A DNA stretch of 64,000 bases from positions 95,568 through 159,567 of the IMG/VR virus record IMGVR_UViG_3300011115_000879; one strand, 5' to 3'. Each line of letters starts with the position of its first letter. The stretch's first letter is position 1. Position numbers and translations under genes: made by a program. Below are positions 1,242-8,565 of this stretch, in pieces. Origin of the DNA: a virus. The notes under the pieces were generated by a model. That model had not been told where the DNA came from. It saw only the letters and a program-made list of their open reading frames with translations, and did not search any database.

Positions 1242-2306
1242 ATGAGTACAAACAAAAATTTGTTCAAAGAAGCAATCGCTGACGCTAAAGCCGTTCGTGA
1301 AGCTGCGTTAGCAAACGCAAAAGTTGCCCTTGAAGAAGCTTTGACTCCGAAACTTCAATCTATGTTATCTGCAAAGTTACAAGAAATGGAGTCATACGAA
1401 GAAGGTGCAATGGGTGGCTACACAGATGAAAATCTGGATGAAGAAGATTACATGCAACCTTTAAACACAGCTGACGAAATGGGTCAGTCTGGTTTCGGAG
1501 CTAGAGAGCAAGGTAAACCTGGTTTTGGAGATTTAGGTTTTGAAGAAGAAGATTTGGAAGAAGATTTCGATTTATCTGAAATTTTAGCTGAACTTAACGA
1601 AGCTGATGAAGAAGAAGCTGAGGAAGAAGGCGAAGAAGAAGAGGATGAAGAGGAAGAAGAAGAAGAATCTGAAGAAGGCGAAAACGTTGCTGACATGTCT
1701 GTTGAAGACTTAAAAGATCTTATCAAATCAATCGTTGATCAAGAATTGGAAGCTGAAGAAGCAGAAACACCTGCTGAAGAAGAAGCTGAATATGCTGATG
1801 GCGAAGAAGCTGGTGAAGAAGCAGGCAACGAAGACGAAATCGATTTAGAAGAATTACTTGCTGAATTAGATTCTTTAGGTGAAAATGATGACGAAGACGA
1901 TATCATGGAAGCTAAAAAGAAAGCTAAAGACACTAAGAAAGAAAAAGAAGCTAAAGAAGAAATGAAAGAAGCAGTAGCTACTATCAATGCTCTTCGTAAA
2001 GAAATGAACGAAGTTAATTTATTAAACGCTAAATTACTTTACGTAAACAAAATCTTCAAAGCTAAGAATTTAACTGAATCACAAAAAGTAAAAGTAATTG
2101 CTTCATTTGATAAAGCAACTAACGTTAAAGAAGCTAAAGTAGTATTCGAATCATTAAATAGTGCTTTACGTGCACCTGCTAAAAAAGCAATTAAAGAATC
2201 CTTTGGATTTGCTTCAAAAGCATCAGGTGTTGCTCAAAACAGAACAATAGTTGAATCAAACGATGCTATTAAACGTATGCAAAAACTTGCAAACATCATT
2301 AAATAA
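1242..2306 (+). CDS. Prohead core/scaffold protein (T4 gp22-like)
   Basis: Very acidic, coiled-coil-like 354-aa protein directly upstream of the major capsid gene, with many (L/I/M)xE sites (LNEA, IMEA, LTES, IKES, IVES) and C-terminal IKRMQKLANIIK. Confidence 0.8.
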   Translation: MSTNKNLFKEAIADAKAVREAALANAKVALEEALTPKLQSMLSAKLQEMESYEEGAMGGYTDENLDEEDYMQPLNTADEMGQSGFGAREQGKPGFGDLGFEEEDLEEDFDLSEILAELNEADEEEAEEEGEEEEDEEEEEEESEEGENVADMSVEDLKDLIKSIVDQELEAEEAETPAEEEAEYADGEEAGEEAGNEDEIDLEELLAELDSLGENDDEDDIMEAKKKAKDTKKEKEAKEEMKEAVATINALRKEMNEVNLLNAKLLYVNKIFKAKNLTESQKVKVIASFDKATNVKEAKVVFESLNSALRAPAKKAIKESFGFASKASGVAQNRTIVESNDAIKRMQKLANIIK

Positions 2307-2334: not shown

Positions 2335-3960
2335 ATGAACGTACAACAATTATTAGAATCATCAAACCAATACAAAACGGTTTCTGATGATGCAAAAAAA
2401 CTTAGTTCCAAGTGGACTAGATCGGGCCTCTTAGAAGGTATTAAAGGCGAAAACGATCGCAATACTATGGCCATGTTGCTTGAAAATCAAGCAAAACAAT
2501 TAGTAACTGAAGCCTCTTCAACTGGTACTGCCTCTCCAGGTAGTGGTGGTTATAATGGTGAATCTTGGAATGGCGTTGCCTTACCATTAGTTCGTCGTGT
2601 ATTCGGTGAAATCGCTGCTAAAGAATTCGTTAGTGTACAACCAATGAACTTACCTTCAGGTCTTGTATTTTATCTTGACTTTAAGTACGGTACTGGTGTT
2701 AAACCATTTGCTCAAAATAGTTCTTTGTATGGCGCTAACGCAACTACAAACGTAACTGATATCGCTTCTGCTTCATTATATGGTGCTGGTAGATTTGGTT
2801 ACTCACTTAACCCATATACAGCTTCTGTAGCTTCTATTTCTTCATCTCTTACTTGGACTGATTTTAATTTTGATGCTGATTATTCAGCTTCTGCCGCTGC
2901 TGGTACTTACAGAAAAATTCAAGTTCCTTTACCGGCTGGATACGATACAAATGGTGTTCGTGCTTTTACAGTTACTTCAGGTTCAACTGATTTACAAGTT
3001 TTAAGTGCATTTACAACTGTAGCTAGTAATACTGGTTCTTTCATTGTAACTGGTTCTTTACTTGCTGGTGTTGTTGGTACTGGTGTAGGTAACTTAATTT
3101 TATCTTATACATTTGCTCCTCAAGATTCTGGTAGTGGTCAATTCCGTGGTGATTTTGAAGACGGCGTTACTAAGAATCCAGGTACTGCTGCTCCATCTAC
3201 AATTGCAATCCCAGAAATTAACGTACAGTTAAAATCTGAACCAATCGTTGCTAAAACTCGTAAGTTGAAAGCACAATGGACACCAGAATTTGCTCAAGAT
3301 TTGAACGCTTACCATAGTGTTGATGCTGAAGCTGAATTAACTGGTATCTTATCTCAATACATTTCAATGGAAATTGATTTGGAATTGATGGATATGTTGA
3401 TTCAAAATGCATTCACTGTTGATTACTGGAGCGCTCAAAACAATACTACTGTTACTGCTGCTGGTGGTGTAGTTGCAAATGCTGCTGCTCAATCCTTCTA
3501 TAACACACAAGGTGGATGGTTCCAAACTTTAGGTACTAAATTACAAAAAGTTAGTAACAAAATTCATCAATTGACATTACGCGGTGGCGCTAATTTCATG
3601 GTAGTTTCTCCAACAGTATCTACTATTTTGGAATCAATTCCAGGATTTGCTGCTGATGGTGATGGTGATAAAATGGAATACAACTTTGGTATTCAAAAGA
3701 TTGGTAGCTTGAACAGTCGTTACAAGGTTTACAAAAACCCATACATGACTGAAAATGTTATCTTGTTAGGATATAAAGGTGCTCAGTTCTTGGAATGTGG
3801 TGCTGTATTTGCTCCATACGTTCCATTGATCATGACTCCATTATTGTATGATCCAACTACATTTACTCCACGTAAAGGTCTTATGACTCGTTACGCGAAG
3901 AAAATGATCCGTCCTGATTACTACGGTAAGATCTATGTTAGTGGTTTGAACACTATCTAA
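2335..3960 (+). CDS. Major capsid protein, copy 1 (T4 gp23-like)
   Basis: gp23 motifs LLENQ, LPLVRR, VSVQPM..PSGLVF, AKTRKLKA.WT.E.AQDL.AYH..DAE.EL, APYVPL, F.PRKGLMTRYA. Start set at ATG 2335 (MNVQQLLES) by alignment with copy 2. Confidence 0.95.
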   Translation: MNVQQLLESSNQYKTVSDDAKKLSSKWTRSGLLEGIKGENDRNTMAMLLENQAKQLVTEASSTGTASPGSGGYNGESWNGVALPLVRRVFGEIAAKEFVSVQPMNLPSGLVFYLDFKYGTGVKPFAQNSSLYGANATTNVTDIASASLYGAGRFGYSLNPYTASVASISSSLTWTDFNFDADYSASAAAGTYRKIQVPLPAGYDTNGVRAFTVTSGSTDLQVLSAFTTVASNTGSFIVTGSLLAGVVGTGVGNLILSYTFAPQDSGSGQFRGDFEDGVTKNPGTAAPSTIAIPEINVQLKSEPIVAKTRKLKAQWTPEFAQDLNAYHSVDAEAELTGILSQYISMEIDLELMDMLIQNAFTVDYWSAQNNTTVTAAGGVVANAAAQSFYNTQGGWFQTLGTKLQKVSNKIHQLTLRGGANFMVVSPTVSTILESIPGFAADGDGDKMEYNFGIQKIGSLNSRYKVYKNPYMTENVILLGYKGAQFLECGAVFAPYVPLIMTPLLYDPTTFTPRKGLMTRYAKKMIRPDYYGKIYVSGLNTI

Positions 3961-3973
3961 TATAATAACATAA

Positions 3974-4005
3974 AAAACGGCTGGGTGTAACAACCTGGCC
4001 GTTTT
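3974..4005 (+). terminator. Terminator hairpin between the two capsid genes
   Basis: AAAACGGCTGGGT-gtaaca-ACCTGGCCGTTTT with a following T-rich tract. Confidence 0.7.
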
Positions 4006-4033
4006 ATTTAATAACACATTCAATTCATTTAAA

Positions 4034-5737
4034 ATGAATATTCAATCTCTATTAGAATCATCAAACCAATATAAAACGGTTTCTGATGATGCAAAAAAAC
4101 TTAGCACCAAATGGGCTAAGTCTGGCCTTTTAGAAGGCATTAAAAGTGAGAATGATCGTAATACGTTATCTATGTTGCTTGAAAACCAAGCAAAACAACT
4201 TGTAACTGAAGCTTCATCTACAGGTACAGCAGCCGCGGGTGCTGGATCTTATAGTGGTGAAAGTTGGAACGGAGTTGCATTGCCTCTCGTACGTAGAGTA
4301 TTTGGTGAAATTGCAGCAAAAGAATTCGTTTCAGTTCAACCAATGAACTTACCTTCAGGTCTTGTATTTTATCTTGATTTTAAATATGGCACAAATGATG
4401 TTCACTTCAATAACGGTGATTCATTATATGGTGCCAATGCAACTAATAACGTAACTAACATCGCAGGTGAATCACTTTACGGTGCTGGTCAATTCGGCTA
4501 CTCAATCAATAACTTCTCAGCTTCTGTTACTTCTGTAACCGGTGCTTTAGCTACTTGGGTAGATTTTAACTTTAACGATGACTTCTCAGCTTCAGCTGCT
4601 AGTAGCCAGTATAAAAAGATTTTAGTTCCATTACCAACAACAGCCGATACAAATGCTGTTCGTTCATTTTTCATTAGTGGTAGTATTATATCTGGATCAG
4701 TAACAAGTTTTGGTGGGTACGGTGTAACTAATACATCTACTAATTTACTACAAGATTTTACTACTGTAACAAATAATACAGCTTCATTCTTATTAACAGC
4801 ATCTTTATTTACTAATAGTGTTGCTAGTGGTTCTAATCCTACACAAACAACACTTTTATACTTTACTGTAGCTCCAACAACTACAACTCGTGGTGATTTT
4901 GAAGATACTACTTCAGGTGGTGGTTCTGGTACAGCTGGTGGTAATGGTGGTTACCCATCTTTCCAATCCAATAGTACAATCGTTATCCCAGAAATTAACG
5001 TACAGTTAAAATCTGAACCAATTGTTGCTAAGACAAGAAAATTAAAAGCACAATGGACACCGGAATTTGCTCAAGATTTAAATGCATATCATAGTGTTGA
5101 TGCTGAATCAGAATTGACAGGAATTTTATCTCAATATATCTCTATGGAGATTGATTTAGAATTAATGGACATGCTAATTCAAAATGCATTTACAGTAGAT
5201 TATTGGTCAGCACAAAATAACACAACTGTTACTGCTGCTGGTGGTGTAGTTGCAAATGCTGCTGCTCAATCGTTTTATAACACTCAAGGAGGATGGTTCC
5301 AAACACTTGGTACTAAACTTCAGAAAGTATCTAATAAAATTCATCAATTAACACTGAGAGGCGGTGCTAATTTCATGGTAGTTTCTCCAACAGTATCTAC
5401 TGTTTTGGAATCAATTCCTGGATTTGCAGCTGATGGTACAGGTGAAAAACTAGAATATAACTTTGGTATCCAAAAAATAGGTTCATTAAATAGTCGCTAC
5501 AAGGTTTACAAAAATCCTTACATGACTGAGAATGTAATTTTATTAGGATACAAAGGTGCACAATTCCTAGAGTGTGGTGCTGTATTTGCTCCATACGTTC
5601 CATTAATTATGACTCCACTTCTTTACGATCCAAGTACATTCACACCTAGAAAAGGTTTGATGACTAGATACGCTAAAAAGATGATTCGTCCTGATTACTA
5701 CGGTAAAATCTACGTTAGTGGTTTAAATACTATTTAA
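4034..5737 (+). CDS. Major capsid protein, copy 2 (gp23-like paralog with a different insertion domain)
   Basis: Same gp23 motifs. Near-identical to copy 1 except in the central Ser/Thr-rich region. Confidence 0.95.
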   Translation: MNIQSLLESSNQYKTVSDDAKKLSTKWAKSGLLEGIKSENDRNTLSMLLENQAKQLVTEASSTGTAAAGAGSYSGESWNGVALPLVRRVFGEIAAKEFVSVQPMNLPSGLVFYLDFKYGTNDVHFNNGDSLYGANATNNVTNIAGESLYGAGQFGYSINNFSASVTSVTGALATWVDFNFNDDFSASAASSQYKKILVPLPTTADTNAVRSFFISGSIISGSVTSFGGYGVTNTSTNLLQDFTTVTNNTASFLLTASLFTNSVASGSNPTQTTLLYFTVAPTTTTRGDFEDTTSGGGSGTAGGNGGYPSFQSNSTIVIPEINVQLKSEPIVAKTRKLKAQWTPEFAQDLNAYHSVDAESELTGILSQYISMEIDLELMDMLIQNAFTVDYWSAQNNTTVTAAGGVVANAAAQSFYNTQGGWFQTLGTKLQKVSNKIHQLTLRGGANFMVVSPTVSTVLESIPGFAADGTGEKLEYNFGIQKIGSLNSRYKVYKNPYMTENVILLGYKGAQFLECGAVFAPYVPLIMTPLLYDPSTFTPRKGLMTRYAKKMIRPDYYGKIYVSGLNTI

Positions 5738-5764
5738 CATAACTTAACCCCGTAAGGTTAAAAT

Positions 5765-5798
5765 AAGAACCCAAGTCGCAAGGCTTGGGTTTCTTTTT
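5765..5798 (+). terminator. Intrinsic terminator
   Basis: AAGAACCCAAGTC-GCAA-GGCTTGGGTTTCTTTTT (GNRA loop, U-tail). Confidence 0.85.
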
Positions 5799-5827
5799 GC
5801 ATATTTATATAAAACAAATCATATAAT

Positions 5828-6499
5828 ATGTCTACGCAACAAGATGAAAAGTTTAAACAAAAGAAAGTTTTGAAAAACGAAATCAAGTATCAAATCCAAC
5901 TAAACGAAGAACAAAAAGAGGCAAAACGATTAATAAGAGAAAATCAAATCGTAGTGATAACAGGTAGAGCAGGCTGTGGTAAATCCTTAGTATCAGCTCA
6001 AACCGCATTAGACTTTCTATTTAAGAAAGAATGCGATTCTATACATGTTACACGTGCTGCTGTAGAAGTAGGCCACTCATTAGGATTCCTACCAGGTAGC
6101 TTAAATGAAAAATTTGATCCATACTTGGAAGCGTTTCAAGAAAATCTAATTAAATGCTATGACAAGGTTAAAATTAACCAACTTATCAACGACCAGAAAG
6201 TTATCGCTCTTCCTGTCCAGTTTATACGCGGAAAAACAGTGGATGATGTACTTGTGGTGGAAGAAGCACAAAATCTTACTAAAGCAGAAATGCTTGCTAT
6301 TCTTACACGACTTGGTAAGAATGGCCGGATTATAATCAATGGAGATAATGAACAAAAAGACATTAGAGATGAATTTAACGGTTTATCTTATGTTATAGAG
6401 TTATCAAAAAAGATAGAAGAAATCAAATGGATTAAACTCAAACACAACCATAGATCTGATATAGTAGGTAAGATACTAGATTATGAATACAGCAAATAA
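5828..6499 (+). CDS. phoH: PhoH-family ATPase
   Basis: Walker A GRAGCGKS, LGFLPGSLNEKFDPY, FIRGKT, EEAQN, LTRLG, GD..Q.D, RSDIV. Confidence 0.9.
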   Translation: MSTQQDEKFKQKKVLKNEIKYQIQLNEEQKEAKRLIRENQIVVITGRAGCGKSLVSAQTALDFLFKKECDSIHVTRAAVEVGHSLGFLPGSLNEKFDPYLEAFQENLIKCYDKVKINQLINDQKVIALPVQFIRGKTVDDVLVVEEAQNLTKAEMLAILTRLGKNGRIIINGDNEQKDIRDEFNGLSYVIELSKKIEEIKWIKLKHNHRSDIVGKILDYEYSK

Positions 6500-6543: not shown

Positions 6544-8565
6544 ATGGCAATAAACCTAAAAGATCTTTACGACCAATATGGTGGTAATCCGAATAAACTT
6601 TCTCCTATAAAGGGTAACTGTCCTTTAGGATATTATGATAATGACCCTGAATTCAGCAATGATGCATTGGGAGCTGCTAGATTTGTAGCTCAACGTTTAG
6701 GTGTTACAGGTCCTCAATATAATTTTACAACTAAAACATATAAGGCAAGCCCCGCTACGCTTAACATTACTGATTTAACAGTATATGCAGCATTTGAAGA
6801 AGCAGTTACTACATATGGTAATATGGTTTATCAATTTAAAATTAGAGATAATTATATTAATTTAGAAGGATCAGATACATTACCATTCTTTCATAATCTC
6901 ATTACGTATGTTAGAAGTACAGAAGTAGGTTCACCGGTAACATGGTCCGCTCCTAGACGATCAACATTTGCCGAAGTTGATTCTGATTCTGCTTATCTTC
7001 AATCAATAAATGATGGAGAAATATACACTATATCATCATCAGTAGCAGATTATATTGCACCTAATTTAGATTTAATTAAGTCATTTAACTTAGCAGATAC
7101 TTATTACAGTTCCGGTTCTAATAGAACATATAACTTAAGTTCATTTATATATAACCAATTTAACTCAGTAGGAGGAGCAACAATATTTACTCCATTTTAT
7201 AATCCAAACAGTGGATCATATGATTTCTCTAGTTACACAAGTAATGATAGTATATTTTCAATAACAGGAAGTAATACAGTAGCAGTACAATTTAAAATTA
7301 CTTCATCTGTACCAACAGATACACCAACTACATTTTATGTAGCTAGCGGTAGCACAGCTGCTCTTACGGCATTTAATATTGCTAATAAAATTACTAGCAT
7401 ATCTTATGGTACATTTGGTACAACAGTAGCAGTAAATACAGGATCAACAGCTACTACACTTAATTTTACATCATCTACCTCAGCATATGATATTAGTAAT
7501 TTTAAAGTAAATAGTACAGCTATATTTTCTAATGTAACATCCGGATCTACAGCAACAATCCCAGAAGGAAATACACACATATATTTCCGTACTATGCGAA
7601 ATGATATATTTAGTGGATCTCCATTCTTTATATCGGCTTCTATAACACAATCTATACCAACAGTATACATTCAATCAAATATTAATCCTGCATTAAATAA
7701 TAGATTAGTAAGTAATAACTTAACAACTATTACAACACGTATTGCTGAAGATTATGCTGCTGAAGCTGGTGTAGGAGGTAAATATGACATAAAGAAGGGA
7801 ATAATAAACATGAAAGGTGGTATTCAAGACTATGACCTAAATGCATGGGCAGCAGCATCCGCTTCATTAGTAAATGGAGATAGTATTGAAGTTAGAAGAG
7901 TATTTTATGAAGGACCACCAGCAATAGCTCGTTATTTTGATCCATATGCTGGTACAGGTACAGGTATACAATCACTACTTGAATCATTTGGATTTGGTCA
8001 AATGTCTCCTGGTATTAATTTTATGTTAATGCCTATATCGTTTGATGTATTAAAACTTCAAGCAATTGAGTTAAATGATCAGATAAGAAAAGCAGCATAT
8101 TCATTTGATTTACAAAATAACCAATTAAAGATATTTCCTGTCCCTACAGTTGACATGCCTTTAATGTTTGAATACGTTAAAATAAGTCAAAAAAGTCAAG
8201 CAGTAAGGGATAACAGAACAAACGTTGTAACAGATATAATGAATGTTCCATATAGAAATCCTATATACTCTAATATCAATGCTGTAGGTAGATTATGGAT
8301 TCTTAAATATACATTAGGATTATGTAGAGAAATCGAAGCACATATTCGTATCCAATCAGCTAATTTAAGCATTGCTGGTATTGGTCCACTACAAGGTAAT
8401 GAATTAATTGCGGATGCTAGAACAGAAAAACAAAGTTTAATTGATGAACTAAAAGAGATGCTAAATGAAGTATCACGTAAATCGCAATTAGAACGTAAAC
8501 AAATGGAAGCTGGCTTTACACGTGATACTTTAACAAATGTTCCCATGACAATTTATATACTTTAA
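6544..8565 (+). CDS. Neck/head-tail adaptor protein (gp13-like) with a large Ser/Thr-rich insertion
   Basis: Follows the head genes. N-terminal AAFEEAVTTY and C-terminal LKIFPVP, WILKYTL, G.ELI..AR.EK..LI.ELKE are typical of gp13-like neck proteins. Confidence 0.6.
   Translation: MAINLKDLYDQYGGNPNKLSPIKGNCPLGYYDNDPEFSNDALGAARFVAQRLGVTGPQYNFTTKTYKASPATLNITDLTVYAAFEEAVTTYGNMVYQFKIRDNYINLEGSDTLPFFHNLITYVRSTEVGSPVTWSAPRRSTFAEVDSDSAYLQSINDGEIYTISSSVADYIAPNLDLIKSFNLADTYYSSGSNRTYNLSSFIYNQFNSVGGATIFTPFYNPNSGSYDFSSYTSNDSIFSITGSNTVAVQFKITSSVPTDTPTTFYVASGSTAALTAFNIANKITSISYGTFGTTVAVNTGSTATTLNFTSSTSAYDISNFKVNSTAIFSNVTSGSTATIPEGNTHIYFRTMRNDIFSGSPFFISASITQSIPTVYIQSNINPALNNRLVSNNLTTITTRIAEDYAAEAGVGGKYDIKKGIINMKGGIQDYDLNAWAAASASLVNGDSIEVRRVFYEGPPAIARYFDPYAGTGTGIQSLLESFGFGQMSPGINFMLMPISFDVLKLQAIELNDQIRKAAYSFDLQNNQLKIFPVPTVDMPLMFEYVKISQKSQAVRDNRTNVVTDIMNVPYRNPIYSNINAVGRLWILKYTLGLCREIEAHIRIQSANLSIAGIGPLQGNELIADARTEKQSLIDELKEMLNEVSRKSQLERKQMEAGFTRDTLTNVPMTIYIL

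What the first reader, a model, noticed from the sequence alone, without database searches (positions are those of the whole stretch)
2335..5737. Tandem near-identical major capsid genes with identical DNA tracts bracketing a variable domain
Seen: two full gp23-like genes have almost identical N- and C-terminal protein regions but different central Ser/Thr-rich domains (about 2679-3207 vs 4378-4984). Much of the conserved part is synonymously diverged, yet exact tracts of 41 bp (2638-2678 = 4337-4377) and 38 bp (3208-3245 = 4985-5022) sit at the two edges of the variable domain, with another 47-bp tract at 3448-3494 = 5225-5271. A terminator separates the genes and copy 2 has no ATATTTAT motif. 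Established: T4 gp23 and gp24 are paralogs but highly divergent, unlike this pair. Inference: either a mosaic capsid with a minority subunit set by terminator read-through, an early-stage vertex protein, or a reservoir for swapping the capsid surface domain by recombination.
Basis: partly seen in the sequence, partly recalled or inferred. Interest (0 to 1): 0.75.

Follow-up and report, generated by a model that had tools for sequence, protein, structure and literature searches.

The report
Paired capsid genes with matched cores
This lake phage and its relatives carry a second, less-expressed copy of their main head-shell gene; its core stays matched to the first copy while its surface domain follows its own history, which may show an early stage of how phages evolve a separate corner (vertex) protein.

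Summary
Two intact Gp23-family genes lie in tandem: c1 at 2335-3960 and c2 at 4034-5737. Their N and C parts are about 95% identical in protein, their centres differ, and all three exact DNA tracts are as reported.

The pair is not an assembly artefact. The same order (copy 1, hairpin terminator, copy 2) recurs in 12 further contig records (about 11 independent), one a complete genome with terminal repeats.

- **Copy 1** is the counterpart of the single capsid gene of related phages.
- **Copy 2** always lies downstream, with no promoter motif of its own and weaker codon optimisation in 13 of 13 pairs.
- **Copy 2's central part** is longer and maps to the T4 insertion (I) domain plus linkers. 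It forms one clade across phages (support 100) and evolves 2-4 times more slowly than copy 1's.
- **The flanking HK97 core** instead clusters with the copy 1 of the same genome. AU tests reject the alternative (p about 1e-4).

This fits an old duplication whose core is kept matched by rare, short gene-conversion patches. The history switches inside the conserved blocks holding the 41-bp and 38-bp tracts, although the 41-bp tract is conserved clade-wide. The swap-reservoir idea is not supported.

Most likely copy 2 is a minor shell subunit, possibly a newly evolved gp24-like vertex protein. That role is inferred, not shown.

The parts
1242..2306 (+). Acidic scaffold (gp22-like) gene directly upstream. 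The nearest ATATTTAT motif is at 1112-1119, so this gene probably heads the same transcription unit as the two capsid genes.
   Evidence: ORF list; acidic repeats; no Pfam or PHROG hit; same position as the acidic protein before the capsid gene in phage immuto; motif positions.
2335..3960 (+). Capsid gene copy 1 (c1, 541 aa): counterpart of the single gp23-type major capsid gene of related phages.
   Evidence: PF07068 at 255 bits; 59% identical to the phage immuto capsid protein; both its centre and its flanks cluster with single-copy genes.
2695..3201 (+). Central variable region of copy 1 (residues 121-289), equivalent to the T4 insertion (I) domain plus linkers. It evolves fast: dN/dS is 0.34-0.81 between orthologues.
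   Evidence: Alignment boundaries; mapping to T4 gp23; rates.
3974..4005 (+). Hairpin terminator T1 between the copies (13-bp stem followed by UUUUAUUU). A hairpin is present in every other pair examined, with different stem sequences.
   Evidence: Fold -20 kcal/mol, z = -5.9; hairpins of -19 to -21 kcal/mol in L005, L006, L026, L030 and L052; similar sequence in L242.
4034..5737 (+). Capsid gene copy 2 (c2, 567 aa): a conserved second shell-protein gene that keeps the long gp23-type N-terminal region and the LVTE|A motif.
   Evidence: PF07068 at 259 bits; predicted structure pLDDT 81.9, best match T4 gp23* at Z 20.4; orthologues under purifying selection.
4394..4978 (+). Copy-2-type central domain (residues 121-315). 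It is longer, with a Gly-rich second linker, forms one clade across phages, and has dN/dS of 0.16-0.29.
   Evidence: Clade of 11 copy-2 centres with support 100; AU test rejects c1+c2 as a clade here, p = 5e-5; at least 75 protein clusters at 58-80% identity in the large protein database.
2638..2678 (+). 41-bp exact tract (= 4337-4377) inside the invariant block QPMNLPSGLVFYLD. This is the left switch zone between core history and centre history. The DNA is conserved clade-wide.
3208..3245 (+). 38-bp exact tract (= 4985-5022) in the block IPEINVQLKSEP. This is the right switch zone. It holds three sites where c1 = c2 but both differ from the two L242 copies.
3448..3494 (+). 47-bp exact tract (= 5225-5271) in a hypervariable A-domain loop. 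There the two copies share genome-specific residues and indels.
3589..3624 (+). 36-bp exact tract (= 5366-5401) holding three genome-pattern sites relative to L242. Candidate short conversion patch.
2518..2565 (+). N-arm linker just after the putative protease site (= 4217-4264 in c2). It contains a run of 10 consecutive genome-pattern sites relative to L242, and L242 shares an indel between its two copies. This is the best candidate conversion tract, at most about 100 bp.
   Evidence: 0 of 20000 shuffles reach the run length.
5765..5795 (+). Terminator T2 after copy 2, followed by an ATATTTAT motif at 5801-5808 before phoH. The same terminator directly follows the single capsid gene in L025.

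Best explanation
The window comes from a roughly 160-kb T4-type phage related to Flavobacterium phage immuto. It carries a conserved two-gene shell module.

- **Copy 1** is the ordinary, highly expressed major capsid protein.
- **Copy 2** is a functional paralogue. It arose by tandem duplication within this clade, independently of T4 gene 24.

Copy 2's HK97-fold core comprises the propeptide, N-arm, P domain and A domain. Over long periods it is kept almost identical to the resident copy 1 by rare, short gene-conversion patches. These are frequent relative to amino-acid change but not relative to synonymous change. That balance would explain a dN of about 0.05 alongside a dS of about 1.

The insertion (I) domain and its linkers are too diverged to be converted. 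They are kept as a distinct, slowly evolving copy-2 type. The two histories meet in the invariant blocks that hold the 41-bp and 38-bp tracts.

Copy 2 has no promoter motif and sits behind a hairpin terminator. It is probably made by read-through in smaller amounts and co-assembles with copy 1 into the same shell.

Its most likely role is to form the pentameric vertices, as a young functional analogue of gp24 in a lineage that otherwise builds vertices from gp23.

- **Shown:** gene structure, conservation, mosaic phylogeny, purifying selection, codon-bias asymmetry.
- **Inferred:** gene conversion as the mechanism (about 0.75), sub-stoichiometric expression (about 0.7), vertex role (about 0.45).
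For: **Real and conserved**
- The order copy 1, hairpin, copy 2 recurs in 12 further contig records: L005, L006, L026, L030, L166, L168, L242, L244, L245, L247, L248 and L249. L026 and L030 are near-duplicates, so about 11 are independent. L052 carries a separate, independent duplication.
- L006 lies in a 168,946-bp genome with terminal repeats, rated 100% complete.
- At least 75 protein clusters carry the copy-2-type centre.

**Both copies functional**
- Between orthologues, flank dN/dS is 0.02-0.19. Centre dN/dS is 0.16-0.29 for copy 2 and 0.34-0.81 for copy 1.

**Mosaic history**
- On the N+C parts, the two copies group by genome or local lineage (support 83-98). Holding the copy-2 genes together costs 150 lnL (AU p = 8e-5).
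- On the centre, 11 copy-2 genes form one clade (support 100). Forcing c1+c2 together is rejected (p = 5e-5).
- Amino-acid quartet patterns (genome: orthologue: cross) in the flanks are 30:0:0, 29:6:0 and 29:1:0. In the centre they are 3:17:1, 4:19:3 and 2:12:1. The switch falls inside the invariant blocks.

**DNA-level exchange**
- The two copies share genome-specific indels and hypervariable loop sequences.
- Against the nearest pair (L242) there is a run of 10 genome-pattern sites (0 of 20000 shuffles reach it). Smaller runs lie inside the 38-, 47- and 36-bp tracts.
- Most sites are nonetheless orthologue-type (57:12:5 in the C part). None changed between L005 and L030. Conversion is therefore rare and patchy.

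**Lower expression of copy 2**
- There is no ATATTTAT motif in the spacer, even with one mismatch.
- The terminator is strong.
- C-ending two-fold codons are more frequent in copy 1 in 13 of 13 pairs, 224 against 88 discordant sites. In this window, late structural genes have the highest values.

**Vertex idea**
- Copy 2 sits where T4 has gene 24.
- There is no other Gp23/gp24-family hit in this genome, in immuto, or in a complete single-copy relative.
- Phages without gp24 use gp23 at the vertices (PMC4621102, PMC2984593).
- gp24 itself derives from a gp23 duplication (PMC9958956).
- The mature proteins differ almost only in the I domain and linkers. In T4 these clamp neighbouring subunits within a capsomer and tie capsomers together (PMC9546572; mapping).
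Against: - No expression, proteomic or structural data exist for any phage carrying the pair. The stoichiometry and location of copy 2 are unknown.
- The cores of c1 and c2 are nearly identical, so nothing visible would stop copy 2 from entering hexamers.
- T4 mutations that bypass gp24 lie in the A domain (PMC9958956). Here the A domains hardly differ.
- Copy 2 keeps the long gp23-type N-terminal region, unlike T4 gp24.
- Synonymous sites between the copies are close to saturation: codon identity is 0.62 against 0.53 expected from bias alone. They therefore cannot date the homogenisation.
- A third-codon-position tree does not group the copies by genome, though it is confounded by composition.
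- Outside the N-arm linker, the excess of genome-pattern over cross-pattern sites against L242 is weak (26 against 20).
- A single origin with losses cannot be separated from spread of copy 2 between phages followed by conversion.
Confidence: 0.55

Rival explanations
1. Copy 2 is a minority subunit that mixes into hexamers, giving a mosaic shell. It places a conserved special surface domain at scattered positions, for example as a docking site for a decoration or fibre protein, or for adhesion. It would not be a dedicated vertex protein.
For: The cores are about 95% identical, so co-assembly into hexamers looks possible. Expression appears lower. Copy 2's I domain is conserved and carries extra loops with low model confidence at 222-234 and 295-311. 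In T4 the I domain forms the surface protrusions (PMC9546572).
Against: No partner protein was identified. Random incorporation gives no clear reason for keeping the whole core matched beyond basic compatibility. The gene's position and the clade's lack of gp24 fit a vertex role slightly better.
Confidence: 0.3
2. This rival concerns origin. The pairs arose separately in each lineage: copy 1 duplicated locally, or a foreign copy 2 was acquired. Only the copy-2-type I-domain cassette spread between phages, by recombination at the conserved bracketing blocks. There was no single old duplication followed by conversion.
For: The flanks track the resident lineage while the centre is one clade. The 41-bp block is conserved at the DNA level across the clade and would serve as a crossover site. 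Exchange between phages within this gene is visible: L244 and L245 are 100% identical from mid-copy 1 onward but diverged upstream. L052 shows that independent duplication does occur.
Against: Win and L242 share orthologous copies at the DNA level (57:12:5), and so do L005 and L030, so pairs are inherited vertically over moderate times. A few copy-2-specific flank residues are shared by win and L006 (6 orthologue-type sites). Synonymous distance between the copies is larger than to the nearest single-copy relatives, which a recent local duplication would not give.
Confidence: 0.25
3. The matched cores reflect co-evolution at the protein level only, with no DNA exchange. Parallel substitutions would be forced on both copies by shared lattice contacts, scaffold and protease.
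For: Amino-acid patterns are almost purely genome-type, while synonymous sites are near saturation and do not group the copies. Some shared loop sequences differ at synonymous sites, for example the L242 linker.
Against: The two copies share genome-specific indels and hypervariable loop sequences, including conservative changes, which selection alone is unlikely to reproduce. Genome-pattern sites are clustered. A balance of mutation and conversion explains the dN and dS values without invoking it.
Confidence: 0.1
4. Copy 2 is a silent reservoir whose central cassette is swapped into copy 1 to change the capsid surface.
For: Conserved blocks bracket the variable domain. Copy 1's centre evolves very fast and is exchanged between phages.
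Against: The copy-2-type centre is never found in an upstream or single-copy gene: 32 single-copy loci with at least 2 kb on both sides and 12 upstream copies. In the centre, genome-pattern sites equal the noise (11 against 11). Copy 2 is a complete gene with a start context like copy 1's, and it is under purifying selection along its whole length.
Confidence: 0.04
5. The tandem pair is an assembly artefact: two co-occurring strains collapsed into one contig.
For: The source is a metagenome-derived record. One related contig (L242) ends inside a sequence that repeats the stretch found after its copy 1.
Against: The same order, with a hairpin between the copies, recurs in 12 further contig records (about 11 independent) from different samples, including a complete genome with terminal repeats. 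The two copies have consistently different centres and codon usage.
Confidence: 0.01

Closest known systems
Phage T4 gp23 / gp24 (major capsid protein and vertex protein, adjacent paralogous genes)
   Same: Two adjacent Gp23-family genes, with the downstream one being the derived copy. Both have the HK97 fold with an insertion domain. gp24 is accepted to derive from a gp23 duplication (PMC9958956, PMC10580926). The predicted copy-2 structure matches gp23* at Z 20.4 and gp24 at Z 16.9.
   Different: T4 gp23 and gp24 are only about 21% identical (PMC10580926). Here the cores are about 95% identical and only the I domain differs. Copy 2 is not an orthologue of gp24, because it branches inside the local gp23 clade. 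It keeps the long gp23-type N-terminal region rather than gp24's 10-residue propeptide. Concerted evolution of the core is not described for the T4 pair in the papers I read. A vertex location is unproven here.
T4-superfamily phages that lack gp24 (cyanomyoviruses; Sinorhizobium phage PhiM9; Flavobacterium phage immuto)
   Same: The closest cultured relative, immuto (59% identity), and a complete single-copy relative each have one Gp23-family gene and no gp24. This matches PhiM9, where gp23 is thought to form the pentamers (PMC4621102), and the cyanomyoviruses (PMC2984593).
   Different: The window's subclade has added a second gp23-type gene. Most of its relatives have not.
Concerted evolution of tandem paralogues by gene conversion, with a protected divergent segment
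   Same: The copies group by genome in the converted parts and by copy in the protected part. Switch points lie in conserved blocks. Shared tracts are patchy.
   Different: Here the synonymous sites of the converted parts are nearly saturated, so conversion must be slow and short-patched. The case concerns two subunits that presumably share one capsid lattice. I found no description of this in six full-text literature searches.

Membership tests
Gp23 family (PF07068), T4-type major capsid protein | Sequence match above the curated Pfam cut-off | tested here: met
   c1 scores 255.4 bits and c2 258.8 bits against a cut-off of 24.4. Both match PHROG 138, major head protein, at E about 1e-71.
Gp23 family (PF07068), T4-type major capsid protein | HK97 fold with an insertion domain placed in the E-loop position | tested here: met
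   The AlphaFold2 model of c2 has pLDDT 81.9 and pTM 0.80. Its best structural match is T4 gp23*: Z 20.4, rmsd 2.8 A over 261 residues, 33% identity. By sequence, the centre (c2 126-319) falls between T4 gp23 residues 138 and 249, where the I domain and linkers lie (PMC9546572).
Gp23 family (PF07068), T4-type major capsid protein | N-terminal propeptide removed by the prohead protease | not testable with these tools
   Both copies carry QLVTE|AS at residues 55-61 before a Gly/Ala/Ser linker. Cleavage is inferred by analogy with T4 gp23.
T4 gp24 vertex protein | Gp23 paralogue encoded directly downstream of the major capsid gene | tested here: met
   c2 starts 73 bases after the c1 stop codon. 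The order is the same in all 12 further contig records with the copy-2-type centre.
T4 gp24 vertex protein | Orthology to gp24 (closer to gp24 than to gp23) | tested here: not met
   By sequence, c2 finds only gp23 chains in the PDB. Structurally, gp23* scores Z 20.4 at 33% identity and gp24 scores Z 16.9 at 16%. c2 branches within the local gp23 clade.
T4 gp24 vertex protein | Forms the pentamers at 11 vertices | not testable with these tools
   No virion data exist and no multimer prediction was available.
Concerted evolution by gene conversion between tandem paralogues | Copies group by genome in one region and by copy in another, with statistical support | tested here: met
   AU tests give p = 8e-5 (flanks) and p = 5e-5 and 0.015 (centre).
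Concerted evolution by gene conversion between tandem paralogues | Nucleotide-level conversion tracts | tested here: inconclusive
   Support: a run of 10 genome-pattern sites (0 of 20000 shuffles), indels shared between the copies, and clustering of identical runs at P about 0.005. Against: outside the N-arm linker the excess is weak (26 against 20), and synonymous sites are near saturation.
Cassette or reservoir system for swapping a variable domain | Donor-type variable segment found in the expressed recipient gene | tested here: not met
   No upstream or single-copy gene carries the copy-2-type centre. The centre shows no excess of genome-pattern sites (11 against 11).

The most novel reading that the evidence does not exclude
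This may be an independent and still young re-invention of a dedicated vertex (or otherwise specialised) shell subunit by duplication of gp23. The new subunit would differ from the major one only in the insertion domain. Gene conversion would actively keep its lattice-forming core in step with its partner. If so, it is a living intermediate of the gp23-to-gp24 transition, and the first case of concerted evolution between two co-assembling capsid subunits.
Probability: 0.4. Interest if true: 0.8.

Novelty: new variant of a known kind. Interest (0 to 1): 0.62.

Why it matters
How icosahedral viruses come to have a separate vertex protein is known only from old, highly diverged pairs such as T4 gp23 and gp24. 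Here the two subunits are still about 95% identical in the core and differ in a single domain. This points to the insertion domain and its linkers as the first part to specialise, and it makes that idea testable.

The case also suggests that gene conversion can keep two co-assembling proteins compatible while one module stays distinct.

In practical terms, capsid-gene (g23) surveys of freshwater phages will count two different sequences per genome in this subclade.

Tried and rejected
- **First structure prediction failed.** With 51 close relatives as the alignment, the c2 model was too poor to use (pLDDT 49). A second run with diverse representatives worked.
- **Two searches for more copy-2 centres gave little.** A single-sequence pattern scan of viral contigs found only distant centres. 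Scans with the four-sequence alignment added only a few pairs.
The genomic context of most of the roughly 75 copy-2-type protein clusters could therefore not be checked.
- **Third-codon-position tree and synonymous quartets are not usable as history**. Both genome-type and copy-type signals appear, but each is confounded by composition. A copy-type excess even shows up for L052, the independent duplication.
- **Selection for synonymous divergence is not supported.** I considered whether synonymous differences were selected to protect the tandem repeat from deletion. The most divergent windows are not more extreme than shuffles (P = 0.88).
- **The immuto gene at the copy-2 position is unrelated.** The protein between the capsid gene and phoH in phage immuto (immuto26A_207) has no similarity to capsid proteins.
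- **No remnants of copy 2** were found next to single-copy genes.
- **Six literature searches** found no report of such a pair. The library lacks many subscription papers, including Comeau and Krisch 2008.

Full report
**What is there**

The window is the last 64 kb of a 159.6-kb viral record rated 94% complete. Two intact Gp23-family genes lie head to tail: c1 at 2335-3960 (541 aa) and c2 at 4034-5737 (567 aa).
- Upstream is an acidic scaffold-like gene (1242-2306). Downstream is phoH (5828-6499).
- A strong hairpin followed by a U-tract separates the copies (3974-4005, -20 kcal/mol, z = -5.9). A second terminator follows c2 (5765-5795).
- The putative late motif ATATTTAT occurs at 1112, 5801 and 6513. 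It does not occur before c1 or in the c1-c2 spacer, even allowing one mismatch.
- The closest cultured relative is Flavobacterium phage immuto (59% identity). It has a single Gp23-family gene and no gp24.

**The observation**

- The N and C parts of the two proteins are 94.6% identical. The centre is diverged and has indels (c1 residues 121-289, c2 residues 121-315).
- The three exact tracts are correct, and three more of 32-36 bp exist.
- Synonymous divergence is high. dS is about 1.1 in both flanks with dN of 0.04-0.09. Of 335 degenerate same-residue codons, 130 differ, including 21 switches between codon families.
- The exact tracts are somewhat longer than expected. P is about 0.005 for the three longest together when synonymous states are shuffled within amino-acid classes. 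Only 2.6% of comparably diverged capsid-gene pairs do as well.
- They are not all alike.
  - The 41-bp tract and the 32-bp tract at 3796 are conserved at the DNA level across the clade (median 3 mismatches in 58 other genes).
  - The 47-bp tract lies in a loop that varies between phages but is identical between the two copies.

**Not an artefact, and not unique**

- Scans of viral and metagenome contigs found the same order (copy 1, hairpin, copy 2) in 12 further contig records: L005, L006, L026, L030, L166, L168, L242, L244, L245, L247, L248 and L249. L026 and L030 are near-duplicates.
- L052 carries an independent duplication.
- L006 lies in a complete 168,946-bp genome with terminal repeats and exactly two such genes. 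A complete 182,846-bp relative has one.
- The hairpin between the copies is always present where examined, with different stem sequences.
- The large protein database holds at least 75 clusters with a copy-2-type centre at 58-80% identity, all 560-590 aa long.
- Most relatives are single-copy. Thirty-two loci with at least 2 kb on both sides have neither a second gene nor a remnant.

**Two histories in one gene**

- On the N+C parts, each copy 2 groups with the copy 1 of its own genome or local lineage (support 83-98). Forcing the copy-2 genes together is rejected (150 lnL, AU p = 8e-5).
- On the centre, 11 copy-2 genes form one clade (support 100). The copy-1 centres scatter among single-copy genes. 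Forcing c1 with c2 is rejected (p = 5e-5).
- Amino-acid quartets say the same. In the flanks, genome: orthologue: cross patterns are 30:0:0, 29:6:0 and 29:1:0. In the centre they are 3:17:1, 4:19:3 and 2:12:1.
- The switch falls inside the invariant blocks that contain the 41-bp and 38-bp tracts. The blocks are conserved for protein reasons, and the left one is conserved clade-wide.

**How the core stays matched**

- The two copies share genome-specific indels and hypervariable sequences in the N-arm linker and in an A-domain loop. This is hard to explain without DNA exchange.
- Against the nearest pair-bearing relative (L242), most informative sites follow orthology: 57:12:5 in the C part and 51:11:11 in the centre. 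The duplication therefore predates that split.
- Genome-pattern sites are nevertheless clustered. A run of 10 lies in the N-arm linker (2518-2565; 0 of 20000 shuffles reach it). Small runs lie inside the 38-, 47- and 36-bp tracts.
- Between the very close L005 and L030, nothing was exchanged.
- Conversion is therefore rare and short-patched. If its per-site rate is comparable to the synonymous rate, and so well above the amino-acid substitution rate, the observed dN of about 0.05 with dS of about 1 is the expected balance. This last step is my inference.
- Third-position and synonymous-codon patterns could not settle the matter because of saturation and composition effects.
- A single origin with losses cannot be separated from spread of copy 2 between phages. 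L025 is nested among pair-bearers and lacks exactly the stretch "hairpin plus copy 2".

**What copy 2 is likely to do**

- Both copies are under purifying selection.
- Copy 2's centre evolves 2-4 times more slowly than copy 1's (dN/dS 0.16-0.29 against 0.34-0.81).
- Copy 2 uses fewer optimal C-ending codons in 13 of 13 pairs (224 against 88 discordant sites). Structural genes score highest in this window. Its Arg codons are closer to the genome average.
- Together with the terminator and the missing promoter motif, this points to a lower-abundance protein.
- A good model of c2 (pLDDT 81.9) matches T4 gp23* best (Z 20.4) and gp24 less well (Z 16.9).
- By alignment to T4 gp23, the centre corresponds to the insertion domain and its linkers. 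In T4 these sit on the neighbouring subunit of the same capsomer and help tie capsomers together (PMC9546572).
- The clade has no gp24. Relatives without gp24 are thought to use gp23 at the vertices (PMC4621102, PMC2984593). gp24 itself came from a gp23 duplication (PMC9958956).
- I therefore favour a young, independent vertex-type specialisation (about 0.45). A minority hexamer subunit with a special surface domain comes next (about 0.3). Nothing computed here can tell these apart.

**What is not supported**

The reservoir idea fails. The copy-2 centre never appears in an upstream or single-copy gene, and the centre shows no exchange between the copies. Copy 1's centre does change quickly, but through exchange with other phages.

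**Verdict**

This is a new variant of a known kind: capsid-gene duplication, here recent and with concerted evolution of the core. It is interesting mainly as a testable intermediate in the origin of vertex proteins.

Noticed in passing
L244:1-3817 compared with L245:846-4668: These two metagenome contigs are 100% identical from about L244 position 1517 (inside the C part of copy 1) through all of copy 2 and beyond. Upstream of that point they are only 52-89% identical. This indicates a sharp recombination breakpoint between phages inside the capsid gene, or else a chimeric assembly.
   Followed up: partly
L052:4255-7614: A separate, independent tandem duplication of the capsid gene. Both the flanks and the centre of its two copies group together next to single-copy L050, and a hairpin lies between them. 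Capsid-gene duplication has therefore happened at least twice in this clade.
   Followed up: partly
L025:7666-7800 compared with window 5738-5864: Single-copy L025 is nested among pair-bearing relatives and is 96-98% identical in the flanks to L242 copy 1. Its capsid gene is followed directly by the terminator and promoter motif that follow copy 2 in the window. It lacks exactly the stretch 'hairpin plus copy 2'.
   Followed up: partly
L242:4589-4610: The 22 bases after copy 2 at the end of this contig are identical to the 22 bases after its copy 1. Either the repeat unit includes the 3' flank, or the assembly broke inside a repeat.
   Followed up: no
window 2695-3201, and copy-1 centres in the related loci: The insertion domain of the abundant copy 1 evolves very fast, with dN/dS up to 0.81 between close relatives. 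In some pairs its synonymous distance is higher than that of its own flanks. This suggests diversifying selection or frequent exchange of this surface domain between phages.
   Followed up: partly
L001:7904-9544 (phage immuto, immuto26A_207): In phage immuto, the slot between the capsid gene and phoH holds a 546-aa repetitive protein instead. It has recurring 'G(T/S)FNYSIP' units and no similarity to capsid proteins.
   Followed up: no
window 6544-8565 and 105-1031: Large ORFs of 673 aa and 308 aa flank the head module and have no Pfam or PHROG match.
   Followed up: no
window 2335-3960 compared with 4034-5737: All five Arg codon-family switches between the copies go from CGT/CGC in copy 1 to AGA in copy 2. 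Ten of eleven Leu switches go from TTR to CTN. AGA is the commonest Arg codon in the window overall. The same Arg asymmetry is seen in L242, but not in all pairs.
   Followed up: partly
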